Notes under the pieces: model-generated | Seen by the model: only the letters and a program-made list of their open reading frames with translations | Database searches by the model: none | What the model was told of the DNA's origin: nothing | In this document: piece by piece, positions 12,450 to 40,500 of the stretch | Layout of the letters: the number at the start of each line of letters is the position of its first letter | Numbering within the stretch: the first letter of the stretch is position 1 | Position numbers and translations under genes: made by a program | Source of the DNA: Patescibacteria group bacterium | GTDB taxonomy: Bacteria; Patescibacteriota; Minisyncoccia; UBA6257; UBA9933 | Length of the DNA stretch: 64,000 nt | Assembly: GCA_038065955.1 (NCBI GenBank) | Contig: JBBTPY010000001.1 | Location: forward strand, 1,890-65,889 | Reading direction: 5' to 3'

Positions 12450-12526
12450 GTTGGCTCGCCCTGAGCTTGTCGAATGGGCTCCGCGCGCTTTTAATGAGTT
12501 CTTTGGCGTGAGGGTAAACTTTAACT

Positions 12527-20284: not shown

Positions 20285-20550
20285 AAATTTATTTTATCAT
20301 TTTCTTATAATTTTTTGTTGTCCGAGATATAAAAATAAACGCAACAGGCAATTATTCTCTGAAAGATTTGCGTAAGTTGATAACTTCCGCCGGATTATTG
20401 AGCCGCAAAGGAAATATGCTTTCCGTCTCCAATATTCAAATACTTTCCACGTTTTGCGCTCGCAAGCGATTTGTTTTGAACCAAAAAAGTCGTGGAGAAT
20501 TCTTGCCGATTTGCCCGCCGAGGGGCGAAGCCCCGAGGCGGTGAACTCGT

Positions 20551-21010
20551 ATCATACTATCTGGCTCCCCGGGTAGGATGGTTCGACAAGCTCACCATTT
20601 TTACCTACCCTAAAGACATATCGCCAATCTCACGGCTTTTACTCAGCTTTTTCAATAATTCCTTATCGCTGTTAATTAAAGCTTTCTTTTTTGCGATGGA
20701 CCACTTTTTAATTTGCTTTTCTCGTTTTTCAGCAACTATTCTTTTTTGATATTCCTCTTTATATACAAGCTTTATATCAGAAAACTTTTTAGTGTAAAAA
20801 GATTCTCTTCGTTTATGTTGAGTTAATCGTCTTTCAATATTATCGGTAACACCGACATAAAAAGTTTTCTGGTCGCAAAAAAGAATATACACAGCCCAGG
20901 ACATATCATAATTATATTGTAAAAGCCCTGAGCTTGTCGAAGGGCTCCCCGGGTAGGATGGTTCGACAAGCTCACCATTTTTACCTACCCCAAAGACATA
21001 TCGCCAATCT
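20551..21010 (-). mobile_element. GIY-YIG nuclease cassette flanked by 69-bp direct repeats derived from the tRNA-Asn 3' end
   Basis: ggctccccgggtaggatggttcgacaagctcaccatttttacctaccc(t/c)aaagacatatcgccaatctc occurs at 20551-20619 and 20941-21009 (one mismatch). Both copy the acceptor and T-stem strand of the adjacent tRNA-Asn with an insertion in the T-loop. Confidence 0.6.
20605..20904 (-). CDS. GIY-YIG domain nuclease (UPF0213-like, 99 aa)
   Basis: MSWAVYILFCDQKTFYVGVTDNIERRLTQHK matches the GIY-x10-YIG...R...H motif. Start set at the internal Met; the longer ORF in the track reads through the repeat. Confidence 0.7.
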   Translation of the reverse strand: MSWAVYILFCDQKTFYVGVTDNIERRLTQHKRRESFYTKKFSDIKLVYKEEYQKRIVAEKREKQIKKWSIAKKKALINSDKELLKKLSKSREIGDMSLG

Positions 21011-21059
21011 CTTTTTCTATTCATAATTATATTGTAAAAGCCCTGAGCTTGTCGAAGGG

Positions 21060-21131
21060 CTCCCCGGGTAGGATTCGAACCTACGACCAAGTGCTTAACA
21101 GGCACCTGCGCTACCACTGCGCTACCGGGGA
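21060..21131 (-). tRNA. tRNA-Asn (anticodon GTT)
   Basis: Manual fold: acceptor TCCCCGG/CCGGGGA, D-arm GCGC-AGTGGTA-GCGC, anticodon loop CTGTTAA, T-arm GTAGG-TTCGAAT-CCTAC, discriminator G, then CC. Confidence 0.85.
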
Positions 21132-21233
21132 ATGCTTGCCCCGCATAAAGCTTCGCTTTTGTGCGGAGTTTAATTGTCAATATTCTATCGCTGACAAAAA
21201 TCAGTTTAGCAAAAATCAAAAAAATATGCAATA

Positions 21234-21300
21234 AAATCAATTTCGGTTATTTCAACGATCGTTGAAATAACCGAAATTGATAGCGAAAATTTCTTCTGCC
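21234..21300 (+). repeat. intergenic palindromic repeat element, copy C (tail truncated)
   Basis: Perfect 42-bp palindrome at 21238-21279, immediately upstream (on the minus strand) of tRNA-Asn. Confidence 0.8.
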
Positions 21301-22148: not shown

Positions 22149-23927
22149 TTATCCGATAGAGGCGCGGACGCGGCGAATTCCGGAAGACACCGCCTCTTCT
22201 TTTAAAATTTTAAATCCGCCGATTTCCGAAGTCCGTTCTACATGCGGGCCGCCGCAAAATTCAACGCTTACGGGAGCTTGTTCTGAGTCTGTCGAAGAAC
22301 CGATAAAATACACTTTTACCGCTTCAGGATATTTTGCCTTAAAAAACGCCAAAGCGCCAATTTTTTCCGCCTCGATTTTATTCATTTCTTTACAATAAAC
22401 CGGCAGATTTTCGTTTATTTTCTGATTGACTAAATCCTCGGTTTTTTTTATTTCTTCCGGTGTCATTTTGCGGCTTAAAGAAAAATCAAAGCGCAATCTT
22501 TCTGGATTAATATCCGAACCGGTTTGCCGAACTTCCTTCCCTAAAACTTCACGCAAAGCCCATTGAAGCAAATGAGTGGCAGTATGTAAGCGAATGACTT
22601 TTTTCGCTTCTTCTTCGCTTCCCGCTTTCAATTCGCTGGTGTTTAAAACCAATCCGTGTCCGCCGAATTTTTTCTCCGCTCCGGCGCGAGAAATTTCCTG
22701 ATGTTTTTCAAATTCTTTTTCTAATCCTTCTTTTGTAATCCCTTCAGTTATATTTTTAGGGGCCAGTTCTTTTATTAATTCTGTCGGAAGACCAAAAGTT
22801 TCATAAATCTGAAAAGCTCTTGTTGAATCAATTGAGCCACCAACACGGACAATATTATCAATTTCTTTAATTCCCCTGCCTATCGCTTCCTGAAATTTTT
22901 GGGCTTCATTTTCTAGAACTTCAAGAATTATTTTGGCATTTTTTAATTCCGGATAAATTTCCCCGAATTTTTCTTTAATAATTTCAACGCTTTCCGGAAA
23001 CAAATCCGCGTGGATGTCATATTTAATCCGATAAGCCATAATTCTGCGAAGCAAACGCCTTAAAATATAACCGGCTTCTTTATTTGACGGCCGGACACCG
23101 TCGGCGATTAAAAACGCCGAAGCGCGCAAATGGTCCGCCAAAATTTTTATAATTCTTTTATCCAAAGCCGGCGCTAATTCGCTTATTTTAAAAACCAAAG
23201 GCTTGAATAAATCGGTTTCAAAAACATCGTCCGTTCCCTGAATAATGGAGCATAATCTTTCAAGCCCCATTCCCGTATCAACGCCGGGATTTTCAACTTT
23301 TCTGAACTTTCCGTTTTTTTCTTTATAATATTCGTTAAAAACCAAATTCCAAATCTCCACTCCGTCAACATAAATTTCCGCGCACGGCCCGCACGGTCCT
23401 TCATCGCCGGTCGGCCCCCAGAAATTATCTTCCCTGCCGTTTAAAATAATTTTATCTTTTGAAATACCGATTTCTTCATTCCAGATTTTATAGGATTCTT
23501 CATCCAAAGGAATAGCTTGTCCTGAGCCTGCCGAAGGATCACCTCTGAAAACCGAAACCGTTATTCTTTCGGAGCTGATTCCCAGAATATCAACGATAAA
23601 TTCATAAGCCCAAAAAATCGCCTCTCGCTTGAAATAATCGCCGAAAGAAAAATTGCCGAGCATTTCAAAAAAAGTCAGATGAGTTTTATCGCCTATTTCC
23701 TCAATATCGCTGGTTCGGAAGCATTTTTGAATGGAAACGGTTTTCCGCGAGCCGAAATCTTTCAAGGCGTCAAGTTCGCCGGTGAAATATCTTTTGAATT
23801 GCTGCATGCCGGCCGTCGTCAAAAGCACCGACGGGTCATCGGGAATCAAAGACGAAGAAGAAACGATTTCATGCCCCTTCTTTTCAAAAAAATCTAAAAA
23901 TGATTGGCGAATTTTCTCGGAAGACAT
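22149..23927 (-). CDS. alaS: alanine--tRNA ligase, short form lacking the C-terminal DHHA1 region
   Basis: N-terminal class II catalytic core (FLDFFEKKGH, TTAGMQQFK, FRTSDIEEIGD) and editing-domain HTATHLL..CGGPHV; only 592 aa. Confidence 0.85.
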   Translation of the reverse strand: MSSEKIRQSFLDFFEKKGHEIVSSSSLIPDDPSVLLTTAGMQQFKRYFTGELDALKDFGSRKTVSIQKCFRTSDIEEIGDKTHLTFFEMLGNFSFGDYFKREAIFWAYEFIVDILGISSERITVSVFRGDPSAGSGQAIPLDEESYKIWNEEIGISKDKIILNGREDNFWGPTGDEGPCGPCAEIYVDGVEIWNLVFNEYYKEKNGKFRKVENPGVDTGMGLERLCSIIQGTDDVFETDLFKPLVFKISELAPALDKRIIKILADHLRASAFLIADGVRPSNKEAGYILRRLLRRIMAYRIKYDIHADLFPESVEIIKEKFGEIYPELKNAKIILEVLENEAQKFQEAIGRGIKEIDNIVRVGGSIDSTRAFQIYETFGLPTELIKELAPKNITEGITKEGLEKEFEKHQEISRAGAEKKFGGHGLVLNTSELKAGSEEEAKKVIRLHTATHLLQWALREVLGKEVRQTGSDINPERLRFDFSLSRKMTPEEIKKTEDLVNQKINENLPVYCKEMNKIEAEKIGALAFFKAKYPEAVKVYFIGSSTDSEQAPVSVEFCGGPHVERTSEIGGFKILKEEAVSSGIRRVRASIG

Positions 23928-39797: not shown

Positions 39798-40100
39798 AAA
39801 TGTTGGCTAAGTTATCCAACTACTGACTCCCACGCTTCAAATATAGATACTAAATTCATACACGCATTATATCTCAACGACCGCCCCTCATCAAATTGCT
39901 CTCTGGAAAAATCGCCTGAAAATCCCTACCGCGTCCTTCCGAAGCGCTTACAGAAGCTGGCGCGAAGGAGGATAATCCTTATTGCCGAGCGGACGCTTTC
40001 GTTCCCCATCAAAAATGCTTGGATTCTCGCGGGGAAATACCATGCCGAGGCGCGAAGCGCCGAGGCAACATCCTCCCCAAAATGGGATTTAGATAAAATG

Positions 40101-40185
40101 CGGAGGGTACAGGATTTGAACCTGTGATGCCTTTCGGCATACTCGCTTTCCAAGCGAGCGCACTAGACCACTATGCGAACCCTCC
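40101..40185 (-). tRNA. tRNA-Ser (anticodon GGA), class II with long variable arm
   Basis: Manual fold: acceptor GGAGGGT/ACCCTCC, anticodon loop TTGGAAA, variable hairpin ATGCC-GAAA-GGCAT, T-arm ACAGG-TTCAAAT-CCTGT. Confidence 0.8.
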
Positions 40186-40481
40186 ATATTTCCTCTTTAA
40201 TTCTTCTCGTTTATAACCATTTTTATATTCTAACTCAAGTTTAATGGATTTCTCTTCTGAAAAAGTCGCTATTTTTTCTAGAAGAATAAATGGTTTTCTG
40301 GACTTCGTAGATCTAACCTTGCCAGAATTATGTTCATTGAATCTTCTTTTAAAATCCTTTGTCCTGCCAATGTATAGATTATTATCTTTCAAACTTTTCA
40401 GAATGTAGACGAAATACATAATTTATAAACGCACTAGACCCCTGCCTGCCTGCCGGCAGGCAGGACTATGCGAACCCTCCA
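40157..40481 (-). mobile_element. GIY-YIG cassette inserted at the 5' end of tRNA-Ser with duplication of tRNA nucleotides 1-27
   Basis: cgcactagacc + actatgcgaaccctcc (tRNA 5' part) recurs at 40430-40480, interrupted by the 24-bp palindrome cctgcctgcctgccggcaggcagg; the GIY-YIG ORF lies between the copies and ends inside the tRNA. Confidence 0.6.
40171..40419 (-). CDS. GIY-YIG domain nuclease (82 aa)
   Basis: MYFVYILKSLKDNNLYIGRTKDFKRRFNEHN matches GIY-YIG; last 15 nt are tRNA-Ser nucleotides 1-15 (GGAGGGTTCGCATAG encodes GGFA-stop). Confidence 0.7.
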   Translation of the reverse strand: MYFVYILKSLKDNNLYIGRTKDFKRRFNEHNSGKVRSTKSRKPFILLEKIATFSEEKSIKLELEYKNGYKREELKRKYGGFA

Positions 40482-40500
40482 TAAACTTTTACATCTTATC

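What the first reader, a model, noticed from the sequence alone, without database searches (positions are those of the whole stretch)
20500..21135. Second GIY-YIG cassette beside tRNA-Asn, flanked by 69-bp direct repeats that are pseudo-3'-halves of the tRNA
Two copies of a 69-bp sequence (one mismatch) at 20551-20619 and 20941-21009 bracket a 99-aa GIY-YIG gene. Each copy reproduces the tRNA-Asn acceptor 3' strand and T-stem, with a 17-nt insertion in the T-loop. The intact tRNA-Asn (21060-21131) carries the same downstream hairpin motif, GAGCCCTTCGACAAGCTCAGGGC, as repeat copy 2. A third instance of that hairpin motif sits at 12459-12482. Two independent GIY-YIG cassettes at tRNA genes within 20 kb suggests a family of small tRNA-targeting selfish elements in this lineage.
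Basis: seen in the sequence. Interest (0 to 1): 0.55.

Follow-up and report, generated by a model that had tools for sequence, protein, structure and literature searches.

The report
Tiny GIY-YIG mobile element behind tRNA-Asn
Right after an intact tRNA-Asn gene sit two tandem copies (one gutted, one intact) of a ~380-bp selfish DNA element that encodes only a 99-residue GIY-YIG nuclease, ends in conserved hairpins and duplicates the last 17 bases of the tRNA; relatives lie behind or in front of many different tRNA genes across the ultra-small CPR bacteria, and I found no published description.

Summary
On the minus strand the order is:
- tRNA-Asn(GUU)
- a 115-nt ORF-less unit
- a 380-nt full unit
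- the native flank

Each unit has five parts:
- a left hairpin, with a 4-bp stem and the 13-nt loop TTCGACAAGCTCA, which also holds a -35 box
- a -10 box 6 nt before a Shine-Dalgarno-less ATG
- a 99-aa UPF0213/SLX1-like GIY-YIG gene
- a right hairpin with the inverse loop, inside a pseudo T-arm
- a 17-nt copy of the tRNA 3' tail

A metagenome contig carries the empty site, tRNA-Asn joined directly to a 95%-identical flank. This puts the insertion between C75 and A76.

Across 79 species genomes, 40 of 82 relatives lie within 250 nt downstream of a same-strand tRNA of eight amino-acid types, against 10 of 1114 other ORFs. Most carry a matching tail repeat and both hairpins, whose stems covary. 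The window's tRNA-Ser cassette belongs to a mirror-image sister family that sits in front of tRNAs.

The selfish-element reading is supported. The insertion mechanism, and whether the nuclease drives it, are inferred only. Four literature searches on GIY-YIG with CPR/tRNA terms found no description.

The parts
21057..21132 (-). Intact tRNA-Asn(GUU). Its last 17 nt (21058-21074, ATCCTACCCGGGGAGCC) are copy 0 of the tail repeat. The encoded CCA is broken to CCC by the insertion.
   Evidence: ARAGORN; Rfam RF00005 72.6 bits; sequence.
20943..21057 (-). Unit 1: a 115-nt ORF-less (MITE-like) derivative. It has the left hairpin, a 9-nt remnant, the last 9 codons of the ORF, the right hairpin and a tail copy.
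   Evidence: 54-nt exact repeat and 69-nt repeat with spacings of 115 and 380 nt; sequence.
21040..21060 (-). Left terminal hairpin of unit 1: GCCC/TTCGACAAGCTCA/GGGC. Three of the four outer-strand bases (GCC) are the tRNA's own last bases.
   Evidence: Stem covariation across 39 loci: 99.4% paired, all 4 pairs with double changes, 0/500 shuffles.
21026..21055 (-). Promoter-like site of unit 1: -35 TCGACA inside the 13-nt loop, 18-nt spacer, -10 TATAAT.
   Evidence: 11/12 match to consensus.
20958..20978 (-). Right terminal hairpin of unit 1: ATGG/TGAGCTTGTCGAA/CCAT, with the inverse 13-mer in the loop. It is followed by tail copy 1 (20943-20959).
   Evidence: covariation 95% paired, 0/500 shuffles.
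20563..20942 (-). Unit 2: the full 380-nt element.
   Evidence: Repeat spacing of 380 nt; same architecture in about 40 other genomes.
20925..20945 (-). Left terminal hairpin of unit 2.
20911..20940 (-). Promoter-like site of unit 2. The -10 box ends 6 nt before the ATG and there is no Shine-Dalgarno sequence, so the mRNA is probably leaderless.
   Evidence: Across loci, -10 boxes peak at 17-18 nt after TCGACA (20/55), the -10-to-start distance is mostly 6-7 nt, and 0/55 have a Shine-Dalgarno sequence.
20605..20904 (-). GIY-YIG nuclease gene, 99 aa, UPF0213/SLX1-like. The stop codon TAG lies in the pseudo T-stem.
   Evidence: PF01541 E=2.9e-14; PDB 1zg2 E=1.2e-11; AlphaFold pLDDT 85.7; Foldseek top hits are UPF0213 then SLX1; invariant Y6, Y16, G18, R26, H30, E62.
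20563..20610 (-). Pseudo T-arm at the right end of unit 2: GGGTAGG (20604-20610), the right hairpin (20578-20598) and tail copy 2 (20563-20579).
   Evidence: T-stem mimics matched to the local tRNA are seen in L011, L015, L022, L030, L048 and L054.
20463..20562 (-). Native tRNA-Asn trailer, starting AGATAG and including a GC-rich hairpin at 20515-20541. In contig L104 this flank directly follows an intact tRNA-Asn, which is the empty site.
   Evidence: L104 1-117 is 94.9% identical to window 20463-20579.
40100..40483 (-). Sister 5'-type cassette:
- a pseudo 5' part of tRNA-Ser: 40465-40483 is tRNA positions 1-16 plus 3 nt, 40441-40464 is the palindrome CCTGCCTGCCGGCAGGCAGG(CAGG) inserted in the D-loop, and 40430-40440 is positions 17-27
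- an 82-aa GIY-YIG ORF (40171-40419) whose end overlaps the tRNA
- tRNA-Ser(GGA) at 40100-40185
   Evidence: The same palindrome and layout occur in three other lineages, L107-L113.
12459..12482 (-). Solo copy of the left-type hairpin (GCCC-A-TTCGACAAGCTCA-GGGC). It is preceded by a tRNA-tail-like GCGCGGAGCC, and no tRNA or ORF is present.

Best explanation
The locus holds two tandem copies of a very small selfish insertion element that has landed at the 3' end of the tRNA-Asn gene without damaging it.

A full unit (380 nt) consists of:
- a left terminal hairpin whose 13-nt loop also provides the -35 box of the element's own promoter
- a leaderless 99-aa GIY-YIG nuclease gene of the UPF0213/SLX1 branch
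- a right terminal hairpin with the inverse loop, which makes the two ends inverted repeats; it is embedded in a mimic of the tRNA's T-arm
- a 17-nt copy of the tRNA's 3' tail, running from T-loop position 59 to C75

The insertion point is between C75 and A76 of the encoded CCA. The first unit is an internally deleted, non-autonomous copy.

The element belongs to a large family in CPR/Patescibacteria that occupies the 3' flank of many different tRNA genes. A sister family occupies the 5' flank; the window's tRNA-Ser cassette is a member.

What is shown:
- the anatomy
- conservation across genomes
- covariation of the hairpin stems
- empty and filled alleles
- different tRNA targets, each with a matched tail
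- decay products

What is inferred:
- The structure-selective GIY-YIG nuclease recognises hairpin or T-arm-like DNA at the tRNA end and at the element's own ends, and makes the break that leads to copying in. This would be homing-like repair or cut-and-paste.
- The tail duplication is made from the target at insertion.
- The 4 bases on the inner side of each terminal loop must pair with target-derived bases on the outer side.
For: Anatomy in the window:
- Repeats, hairpins, ORF and tRNA.
- The ends are inverted: TTCGACAAGCTCAgggcTTTTAC against TTCGACAAGCTCAccatTTTTAC on the other strand.

Empty site and absence in relatives:
- L104 has tRNA-Asn ...GGGGAGCC|AGATAGGATGATACGAG... with a flank 94.9% identical to window 20463-20579 and no cassette.
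- L098 (ZIP protein 85% identical) has no cassette after its tRNA-Asn.

Family evidence:
- 40/82 relatives lie within 250 nt downstream of a same-strand tRNA, against 10/1114 other ORFs; odds ratio 105, p=4e-42.
- An exact 15-19-nt copy of the adjacent tRNA's own tail lies after the ORF in most loci.
- The left hairpin is present in 54/68 cassettes and the right hairpin in 37/68.
- Both 4-bp stems covary around invariant loops.
- In L030 the T-loop ends CT and the inner strand is AGGG instead of ATGG, a compensatory change.

Target switching:
- The nearest-neighbour protein is at the same tRNA type in only 16/38 cases.
- The closest relative (78% aa) is behind tRNA-Gln with a 16-nt Gln-matched repeat.

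Decay and amplification:
- Truncated ORFs in L014, L057 and L068.
- Tandem full units in L008 and L054.
- ORF-less units in the window and L039.
- Decaying downstream tails.

Expression: position-specific -35/-10 boxes and no Shine-Dalgarno sequence.

Protein:
- Catalytic-type invariant residues are retained.
- The fold is nearest to UPF0213 and then to the structure-selective nuclease SLX1, rmsd about 2 A over about 70 residues.

Mirror family at tRNA 5' ends.
Against: - There is no direct evidence that the nuclease cuts tRNA genes or moves the element.
- A 99-aa protein has no separate DNA-binding domain of the kind classical homing endonucleases use.
- Identical proteins were always found at a single locus across many samples, so there is no sign of recent bursts.
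- The length of the duplicated tRNA piece varies: 11 nt in L007, 15-19 nt typically, and about 60 nt in L002, L005, L057 and L106. This does not fit a simple fixed staggered cut.
- In L106 the flanking tails match a foreign tRNA-Asn allele, not the resident one.
- About 8 cassettes have no tRNA upstream.
- Single-sequence folding energies of the hairpins are unremarkable, z = -0.2 to -1.9.
- The empty-site contig L104 is not otherwise syntenic with the window.
Confidence: 0.72

Rival explanations
1. A host-serving gene rather than a parasite. On this view the small GIY-YIG protein acts on tRNA or on nucleic acid at tRNA loci (processing, repair, quality control or defence). It is kept next to tRNA genes for co-expression. 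The hairpins and the pseudo tail are RNA processing or regulatory signals, for example complementary loops that kiss in a tRNA-mRNA co-transcript.
For: - Strong purifying conservation of the protein: 60% mean column identity and invariant catalytic residues.
- The locus is stable, with the same protein at the same place in 24 contigs from many samples.
- The two 13-nt loops are exactly complementary and both stems covary, as in a structured RNA.
- The gene always lies on the tRNA's strand.
Against: - Distribution is patchy, and empty alleles exist.
- Eight different tRNA types are involved, and close relatives sit at different tRNAs.
- Pseudogenes, ORF-less units and tandem copies occur.
- The element has its own promoter with a leaderless start, so the left hairpin is not in the mRNA.
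- The downstream tail decays.
- The inverted symmetry of the ends is what DNA transposon ends look like.
Confidence: 0.13
2. Recombination scars. On this view the direct repeats are attL/attR-like remains of a larger integrase-borne island, or of repeated illegitimate recombination at a tRNA hotspot. The GIY-YIG gene is left-over cargo and the hairpins are unrelated small repeats that accumulate in dispensable DNA.
For: - Integrase-type islands classically duplicate the tRNA 3' end from the T-loop onward (established knowledge).
- Duplication length is variable, and a foreign tRNA allele piece occurs in L106.
- GC-rich hairpins are inserted into loops of several pseudo-tRNA pieces.
- The same tRNA-Asn carries a group I intron in relatives, so the site is a hotspot.
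Against: - The same ~0.4-kb, single-ORF architecture with the same hairpins at the same positions recurs in more than 40 genomes.
- No integrase is found in or beside the window cassette.
- Units repeat in tandem with identical ends.
- The hairpin and GIY-YIG association persists outside CPR and away from tRNAs, in L061, L069 and L074.
Confidence: 0.08
3. Ordinary terminator or REP-type repeats that resemble the tRNA by chance, next to an unrelated small ORF.
For: - The left hairpin is followed by a short T run.
- Single-sequence folding energies are weak.
Against: - The 17-nt identity to the tRNA tail is exact, and in other genomes the repeat changes with the tRNA.
- 0 matches to the motif are expected by chance.
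- Enrichment next to tRNAs has p=4e-42.
Confidence: 0.02

Closest known systems
UPF0213 / YhbQ / YazA / SLX1 branch of the GIY-YIG (URI) superfamily
   Same: - The protein is a member by sequence: 1zg2 BH0048 E=1.2e-11 and 1ywl EF2693 E=9e-10.
- It is also a member by predicted fold: top Foldseek hits are 1zg2 and 1ywl, then SLX1 at about 2 A rmsd.
- It is about 100 aa and has a single domain.
- SLX1 is a structure-selective nuclease on branched DNA (PMC7017083).
   Different: - UPF0213 proteins have no assigned biological role.
- SLX1 has a zinc-finger domain and needs SLX4; this protein has only a ~25-aa basic helical tail.
Free-standing GIY-YIG homing endonuclease genes of phages (T4 Seg proteins, notably SegB in the tRNA gene cluster; I-TevI and I-BmoI as intron-borne relatives). 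This comparison rests on my own knowledge.
   Same: - A lone nuclease gene sits beside or between conserved genes.
- Presence and absence vary between genomes.
- The presumed spread is by a break in the empty allele followed by repair from the filled one.
- tRNA genes serve as the conserved landing zone.
   Different: - Those enzymes are 200-250 aa and have a dedicated DNA-binding domain; this one is 99 aa.
- They have no terminal inverted hairpins, no target duplication and no ORF-less derivatives.
- By fold, I-TevI ranks far below SLX1.
- No relatives were found in 2.9 million viral contigs.
tRNA-3'-end-targeting integrative elements (tyrosine-integrase islands and prophages) and casposons (TIR plus target duplication at a tRNA 3' end; PMC5137440 was listed, the details are my own knowledge)
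   Same: - The target is the 3' end of a tRNA gene.
- The element is flanked by a direct repeat of the tRNA segment from the T-loop to the 3' end, so the tRNA stays intact.
- For casposons there are also terminal inverted repeats.
   Different: - There is no integrase, Cas1 or polymerase.
- The size is 0.38 kb, against 8-100 kb.
- The repeat tracks many different tRNAs among closely related elements.
Hairpin-ended single-strand transposons and their derivatives (IS200/IS605, REP/RAYT) and MITEs. This comparison rests on my own knowledge.
   Same: - Small conserved hairpins at both ends, with structure-preserving covariation.
- Non-autonomous ORF-less copies, solo hairpins and tandem hairpin arrays occur (window 12459-12482; L012, L074).
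- Pairing between element bases and flanking target bases is reminiscent of IS608 guide-to-target pairing.
   Different: - The enzyme is a GIY-YIG nuclease, not an HUH/Y1 transposase.
- IS200/IS605 elements make no target duplication and have no inverted terminal repeats.
Insertion sequences and homing endonucleases in rRNA genes of CPR bacteria (PMC11270868)
   Same: - The same host group.
- Selfish insertions in or at structural RNA genes.
- That study reports that GIY-YIG proteins in rRNA insertions lie in non-intron sequences.
   Different: - Those insertions are inside rRNA genes and must be removed from the RNA.
- tRNA is not mentioned at all in that paper (0 occurrences).
- Here the element sits outside the mature tRNA and restores it by duplication.

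Membership tests
GIY-YIG nuclease superfamily (Pfam PF01541) | Significant match to the GIY-YIG catalytic domain | tested here: met
   E=2.9e-14, 53.5 bits against a cut-off of 22.6, residues 3-72.
GIY-YIG nuclease superfamily (Pfam PF01541) | Conserved catalytic-core residues (two Tyr motifs, Arg, His/Tyr, Glu) | tested here: met
   Y6, Y16, G18, R26, H30 and E62 are invariant in 34 relatives and present in the window protein. Mapping these to catalytic roles rests on knowledge of I-TevI and UvrC.
UPF0213 (YhbQ/YazA-like, SLX1 branch) | Closest solved relatives are UPF0213 proteins; about 100 aa with a single domain | tested here: met
   1zg2 E=1.2e-11 and 1ywl E=9e-10; Foldseek ranks 1-2 are UPF0213 and ranks 3-11 are SLX1.
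Free-standing homing endonuclease gene | Presence/absence polymorphism at a defined site in a conserved gene region | tested here: met
   Empty site in L104; no cassette in L098.
Free-standing homing endonuclease gene | The encoded enzyme cleaves the empty allele | not testable with these tools
   This needs biochemistry.
Free-standing homing endonuclease gene | A long-target DNA-binding module in addition to the catalytic domain | tested here: not met
   The protein is 99 aa: a catalytic domain plus helices at 70-77 and 81-93 only.
Integrase-type tRNA-targeting integrative element | Direct repeat of the tRNA 3' segment at both ends | tested here: met
   17-nt tail present three times.
Integrase-type tRNA-targeting integrative element | Tyrosine or serine integrase encoded in the element | tested here: not met
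   The only ORF in the unit is the GIY-YIG gene. Of the four flanking ORFs scanned, two are the ZIP transporter and AlaRS and two have no Pfam match; none matches an integrase.
DNA transposon / insertion sequence | Terminal inverted repeats | tested here: met
   20/23 identical ends in the window; conserved 13-mer hairpins at both ends across loci.
DNA transposon / insertion sequence | Target-site duplication of fixed length | tested here: inconclusive
   17 nt here and 15-19 nt in most loci, but 11 nt in L007 and about 60 nt in L002, L005, L057 and L106.
DNA transposon / insertion sequence | Transposase of a known class (DDE, HUH, serine or tyrosine) | tested here: not met
   Only GIY-YIG (PF01541) and the weak related family T5orf172 match.
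DNA transposon / insertion sequence | Several near-identical copies per genome | tested here: inconclusive
   Two adjacent units share 54 nt (exact) and 69 nt (1 mismatch) ends. However, identical proteins map to one locus only, and whole genomes were not available.
MITE-like non-autonomous derivative | The same ends as the autonomous element with no ORF | tested here: met
   115-nt unit at 20943-21057; an extra ORF-less unit in L039.
Group I intron with GIY-YIG ORF | Group I ribozyme core around the ORF | tested here: not met
   No RF00028 match in the window at the gathering or E-value threshold. By contrast L098 and L053 do have one.
IS200/IS605 or REP/RAYT | HUH Y1 transposase | tested here: not met
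Known anti-phage defence systems (PADLOC) | Full-length match to a defence protein model | tested here: not met
   Only 30-40-residue matches to the GIY-YIG motif of ~300-aa PDC-S14 models.

The most novel reading that the evidence does not exclude
These cassettes may be a previously unrecognised class of minimal autonomous DNA element whose only protein is a ~95-aa structure-selective GIY-YIG nuclease. On this reading, target choice and end recognition are made largely by nucleic-acid structure, not by a protein DNA-binding domain.

- Each terminal 13-nt loop is closed by 4 base pairs. One strand of each stem comes from the target (the tRNA's discriminator-CC end on the left, T-loop positions 59-60 on the right). 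The other strand comes from the element and covaries with it.
- The element would therefore read T-arm-like hairpins and could retarget to any tRNA.
- Two sister lineages would have specialised on the two most conserved tRNA loops, the D-loop side and the T-loop side.
- If so, the widespread UPF0213 family would gain a first biological role.
Probability: 0.25. Interest if true: 0.85.

Novelty: new variant of a known kind. Interest (0 to 1): 0.66.

Why it matters
- It would give a concrete biological role, as the engine of a selfish element, to at least one large clade of the uncharacterised UPF0213/YhbQ-like GIY-YIG proteins.
- At 380 bp it would be one of the smallest apparently autonomous mobile elements in bacteria.
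- It would reveal a layer of tRNA-gene parasitism in CPR bacteria that sits alongside their known rRNA and tRNA introns.
- The element-to-target base pairing at both ends, if functional, suggests a structure-guided way of choosing insertion sites that could be reprogrammed.
- On the practical side, public gene calls at such loci are wrong. Here a 208-aa "GIY-YIG" ORF was called across the tRNA. The repeats also appear to break metagenome assemblies: several contigs end at the hairpins.

Tried and rejected
- **Rfam.** At gathering and at E<=10 thresholds only the tRNA is found; no known RNA family covers either hairpin or the pseudo halves.
- **Single-sequence folding.** Z-scores of -0.2 to -1.9 are not informative, so I used covariation instead.
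- **Multi-copy test.** Looking up identical proteins (P0068, P0094) returned the same locus in every sample, so there is no evidence of recent bursts.
- **Window proteins as handles.** An exact-protein look-up of the window's ZIP neighbour returned only the source contig. I therefore had to go through homologues.
- **Viral contigs.** No relatives were found.
- **Defence-system models.** Only motif-level hits.
- **Literature.** Eight searches in all. Four paired GIY-YIG with CPR or tRNA terms, and others used the 13-mer sequences and UPF0213/YhbQ. None found a description of tRNA-flanking GIY-YIG cassettes.
- **RNA kissing-loop idea.** Considered as the main function and down-weighted, because the promoter and leaderless geometry place the left hairpin outside the mRNA.
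- **Recombination models.** Crossover models at the shared TCGAA of the T-loop and the 13-mer predict junctions that are not observed.
- **Fixed staggered-cut duplication.** Not adopted as certain, because the duplication length varies.
- **ORF-end motif.** The apparent similarity of GAGATTGGCGAT to the tRNA variable region is too weak to use.
Full report
**1. Checking the observation**

The region was read directly.
- ARAGORN finds tRNA-Asn(GTT) on the minus strand at 21057-21132. Rfam agrees at 72.6 bits.
- The repeat finder gives the 69-nt direct repeat at 20563-20631 and 20943-21011 with one mismatch.
- The 23-nt motif GAGCCCTTCGACAAGCTCAGGGC occurs exactly twice, with 0 expected by chance.
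- Its 12-nt core occurs five times, against 0.27 expected. One copy is at 12463-12474, and two lie in the opposite orientation inside the 69-nt repeats.
- The ORF at 20605-20904 (minus strand, 99 aa) is a GIY-YIG domain protein (PF01541, E=2.9e-14). The second cassette's ORF at 40171-40419 (82 aa) is one too, at E=1.2e-15.
- The two proteins share only 34% identity over 29 residues.

**2. Anatomy on the tRNA's strand**

Reading 5' to 3' on the minus strand, the tRNA is followed by two units and then the native flank.
- The tRNA ends ...GGTAGG-TTCGAAT-CCTACC-CGGGGAG-CC.
- Unit 1 is 115 nt (21057 down to 20943). Unit 2 is 380 nt (20942 down to 20563). The flank starts AGATAG.

Each unit has the following parts.
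- It opens with C-TTCGACAAGCTCA-GGGC. Together with the preceding GCC of the tRNA tail, this makes a 4-bp stem around a 13-nt loop.
- Next comes TTTTAC, an AT-rich stretch, and in unit 2 the ORF.
- The ORF's stop codon lies in GGGTAGG, a copy of the T-stem 5' strand.
- Then comes ATGG-TGAGCTTGTCGAA-CCAT, a second 4-bp stem whose loop is the exact reverse complement of the first loop.
- Last is ATCCTACCCGGGGAGCC, the final 17 nt of the tRNA.

The two ends read as inverted repeats, 20 of 23 bases identical: TTCGACAAGCTCAgggcTTTTAC and, on the other strand, TTCGACAAGCTCAccatTTTTAC. Unit 1 keeps both ends and the last nine codons but has lost the rest of the ORF.

**3. Its own promoter**

The consensus scan places a -35 box (TCGACA) inside the 13-nt loop. 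An 18-nt spacer and TATAAT follow, an 11/12 match, in both units.

Across 55 related cassettes:
- -10-like hexamers peak sharply at 17-18 nt after TCGACA: 20 loci, against 0-4 at any other offset.
- The -10 box ends mostly 6-7 nt before the start codon.
- None has a Shine-Dalgarno-like sequence.

The gene is therefore probably expressed as a leaderless mRNA from a promoter built into the left end. This is inference from consensus matches. It also means the left hairpin is not part of that mRNA.

**4. The protein**

- A profile of 34 relatives hits two structural-genomics UPF0213 proteins (1zg2 at E=1.2e-11, 1ywl at E=9e-10), then SLX1.
- The AlphaFold model (pLDDT 85.7) has the expected beta-beta-alpha-beta-alpha core plus two C-terminal helices. 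The last eight residues, which are the ones encoded inside the repeat, are disordered.
- Foldseek ranks UPF0213 first. SLX1, a structure-selective nuclease for branched DNA, comes next at about 2 A rmsd. UvrC and I-TevI rank far lower.
- Y6, Y16, G18, R26, H30 and E62 are invariant in the family.

**5. Relatives elsewhere**

The protein search found 203 relatives, essentially all from Patescibacteria/CPR assemblies. A scan of one genome per species returned 79 loci.
- 40 of 82 matches have a tRNA ending within 250 nt upstream on the same strand, usually 28-60 nt away. Among other ORFs in the same loci the figure is 10 of 1114. The odds ratio is 105 and p=4e-42.
- The tRNAs are Gln, Glu, Ser, Asn, His, Lys, Asp and Arg.
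- Two more loci prove to be tRNA-adjacent once Rfam is used: L035 has a tRNA that ARAGORN missed, and L053 has a group I intron just upstream.
- In most loci an exact 15-19-nt copy of that tRNA's own tail recurs 13-76 nt after the stop codon.
- The left hairpin is present in 54 of 68 cassettes and the right hairpin in 37 of 68.
- The loops are nearly invariant while the stems change in a compensatory way. The left stem is 99.4% paired and the right stem 95% paired. All four pairs in each show double changes, and 0 of 500 shuffles reach the observed score.
- Part of each stem's outer strand is target-derived. On the left this is the tRNA's discriminator-CC end: GCCC, ACCC, GCAC or GCCA. On the right it is T-loop positions 59-60.
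- In L030 the T-loop ends in CT instead of AT, and the element's inner strand is AGGG instead of ATGG.

**6. Evidence for mobility**

- *An empty site.* A metagenome scan for the T-loop-tail-flank junction found six contigs, each with an intact tRNA-Asn followed by CCAGATAG.
  - In L104 the following 100 nt are 94-95% identical to the window's flank beyond the second unit, and there is no cassette.
  - This fixes the insertion between C75 and A76 and the duplication at 17 nt.
  - L104 is not otherwise syntenic with the window.
- *A cassette-free relative.* L098, whose ZIP transporter is 85% identical to the window's, has nothing resembling the cassette after its tRNA-Asn.
- *Target switching.*
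  - The nearest protein neighbour is at the same tRNA type in 16 of 38 cases. Chance expectation is 6.4, so there is some fidelity, but 22 of 38 differ.
  - The closest relative of the window protein (78% identity, a Sungbacteria genome) sits behind tRNA-Gln(CTG) with a 16-nt Gln-matched repeat.
  - The tail therefore tracks the resident tRNA and not the protein lineage.
- *Decay and amplification.*
  - Truncated ORFs occur in L014, L057 and L068.
  - Tandem full units occur in L008 and L054.
  - ORF-less units occur in the window and L039.
  - Downstream tails carry 1-2 mismatches in L002, L020, L043, L048 and L055.

**7. What does not fit neatly**

- Identical proteins always map to one locus across many samples, so recent activity is not evident.
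- The duplicated tRNA piece is 11 nt in L007 and about 60 nt in L002, L005, L057 and L106.
- In L106 the tails flanking the cassette belong to a different tRNA-Asn allele from the resident gene. This suggests arrival by recombination together with donor tRNA sequence.
- About eight cassettes have no tRNA upstream. Their left flank is degenerate and T-loop-like, yet their right tail is a good tRNA-Glu tail.
- These points argue against a simple fixed staggered cut. A break-and-repair (homing-like) route remains a live alternative to transposition. I cannot decide between them.

**8. The tRNA-Ser cassette is a mirror image**

The layout on the minus strand is as follows.
- An upstream pseudo 5' part comes first: tRNA positions 1-16, then the palindrome CCTGCCTGCCGGCAGGCAGG inserted in the D-loop, then positions 17-27.
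- The 82-aa ORF follows.
- The real tRNA comes last, and its first bases supply the ORF's final codons and stop codon.

Evidence that this is a family:
- Relatives of this protein lie 27-86 nt upstream of tRNAs in seven of the species loci. Several tRNAs are flanked on both sides by one cassette of each type.
- Three further lineages (L107, L108-110, L111-113) all sit directly in front of tRNA-Ser with the same palindrome in a pseudo D-loop. L107 has a tandem arrangement.
- There are thus two sister families, one for each flank of tRNA genes.

**9. Comparison with what is known**

- By membership, the protein is a UPF0213/SLX1-branch GIY-YIG nuclease.
- The element works like a free-standing homing endonuclease gene in its lone nuclease and its empty and filled alleles.
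- It works like a tRNA-targeting integrative element or casposon in the duplicated tRNA 3' segment that keeps the tRNA intact.
- It works like hairpin-ended transposons and MITEs in its structured inverted ends, ORF-less derivatives and solo hairpins.
- It fails a defining feature of each of these:
  - no long-target DNA-binding domain
  - no integrase
  - no known transposase class
  - no ribozyme core
- Eight full-text searches found no description. The one detailed study of CPR selfish insertions concerns rRNA genes and does not mention tRNA.
- I rate the element a new variant of known kinds. There is a real chance that it is something more distinct.

**10. Verdict**

- That it is a tRNA-end-targeting selfish element family is well supported by comparative evidence.
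- How it moves, and whether the nuclease does the moving, is inferred.

Noticed in passing
window 22284-22296 and 23523-23535 (minus strand, inside the AlaRS ORF 22149-23927): Two in-frame copies of the same hairpin type lie inside the alanyl-tRNA synthetase gene: GATCC-TTCGGCAGGCTCA-GGAC-AAGCTA (encoding DPSAGSGQAI) and GGTTC-TTCGACAGACTCA-GAAC-AAGCTC (encoding GSSTDSEQAP). At the second site close relatives read GKEGDE----IS, which is 4 aa shorter. The L097 contig begins exactly at the first site. The hairpin may have inserted in-frame into a housekeeping gene.
   Followed up: partly
L098 1618-2245; L097 2265-end; L100; L053 3686-3919: In close relatives of the window organism the orthologous tRNA-Asn is split in the anticodon loop (after CTGT). 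The insert is a group I intron (RF00028, 64.7 bits) carrying a 106-aa HNH-type ORF. The window's tRNA-Asn has no intron. L053 has both an intron-containing tRNA and a downstream GIY-YIG cassette.
   Followed up: partly
window 20463-20562 (GC hairpin at 20515-20541) and 40043-40067: The native trailer of tRNA-Asn is 95% identical in L104, even though the two tRNAs are only 84% identical and the rest of the contigs is not syntenic. It contains a GC-rich hairpin, CCGCC-TC-GGGGC-TTC-GCCCC-TC-GGCGG. A compensatory variant, TTGCC-TC-GGCGC-TTC-GCGCC-TC-GGCA, lies just downstream of tRNA-Ser. This may be another small conserved or mobile hairpin family.
   Followed up: partly
L002, L005, L031, L054, L057, L106 (pseudo-tRNA pieces next to cassettes): Redundant partial tRNA copies beside the cassettes carry GC-rich hairpins inserted exactly in their D-loop, anticodon loop or T-loop. 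One example is L106, with hairpins in both the anticodon loop and the T-loop of a 5'-truncated pseudo-tRNA-Asn.
   Followed up: partly
L105 2806-2850; L106 2050-2095; L041 both ends: Copies of the 13-mer hairpin are nested inside the loop of another copy, for example TGAGC[AGTTCGACAAGCTCACTG]TTGAACGTGTCGAA. This suggests that the hairpin loop is itself an insertion target.
   Followed up: no
L074 3294-3930 (Dehalococcoidia chromosome); L012 1928-2012; L026: Tandem arrays of the hairpin occur. L074 has 17 copies of a 39-nt unit, GGTGG-TTCGACGGGCTCA-CCATGAGCGG..., directly upstream of a GIY-YIG gene in a non-CPR bacterium with no tRNA nearby. L012 has at least 4 copies of a 24-nt unit after tRNA-Ser, interrupted by an assembly gap.
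   Followed up: no
window 20605-21240 (minus strand); L080 4001-4627: The public gene call on the source contig (ENA Hain_PNK108_H32) merges the tRNA, unit 1 and the GIY-YIG gene into one 208-aa 'GIY-YIG' ORF. This is why the true 99-aa protein is not in the protein database as such.
   Followed up: yes
window 21236-21281: A perfect 46-nt palindrome (ATCAATTTCGGTTATTTCAACGA/TCGTTGAAATAACCGAAATTGAT) followed by a T run lies between the ZIP transporter gene and the tRNA-Asn. It is most simply the ZIP gene's terminator.
   Followed up: no
L098 5386-6538: About 3 kb from the intron-containing tRNA-Asn, the relative encodes Archease, a 2'-5' RNA ligase-like protein and RtcB in a row. This is an RNA repair or ligation set.
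   Followed up: no
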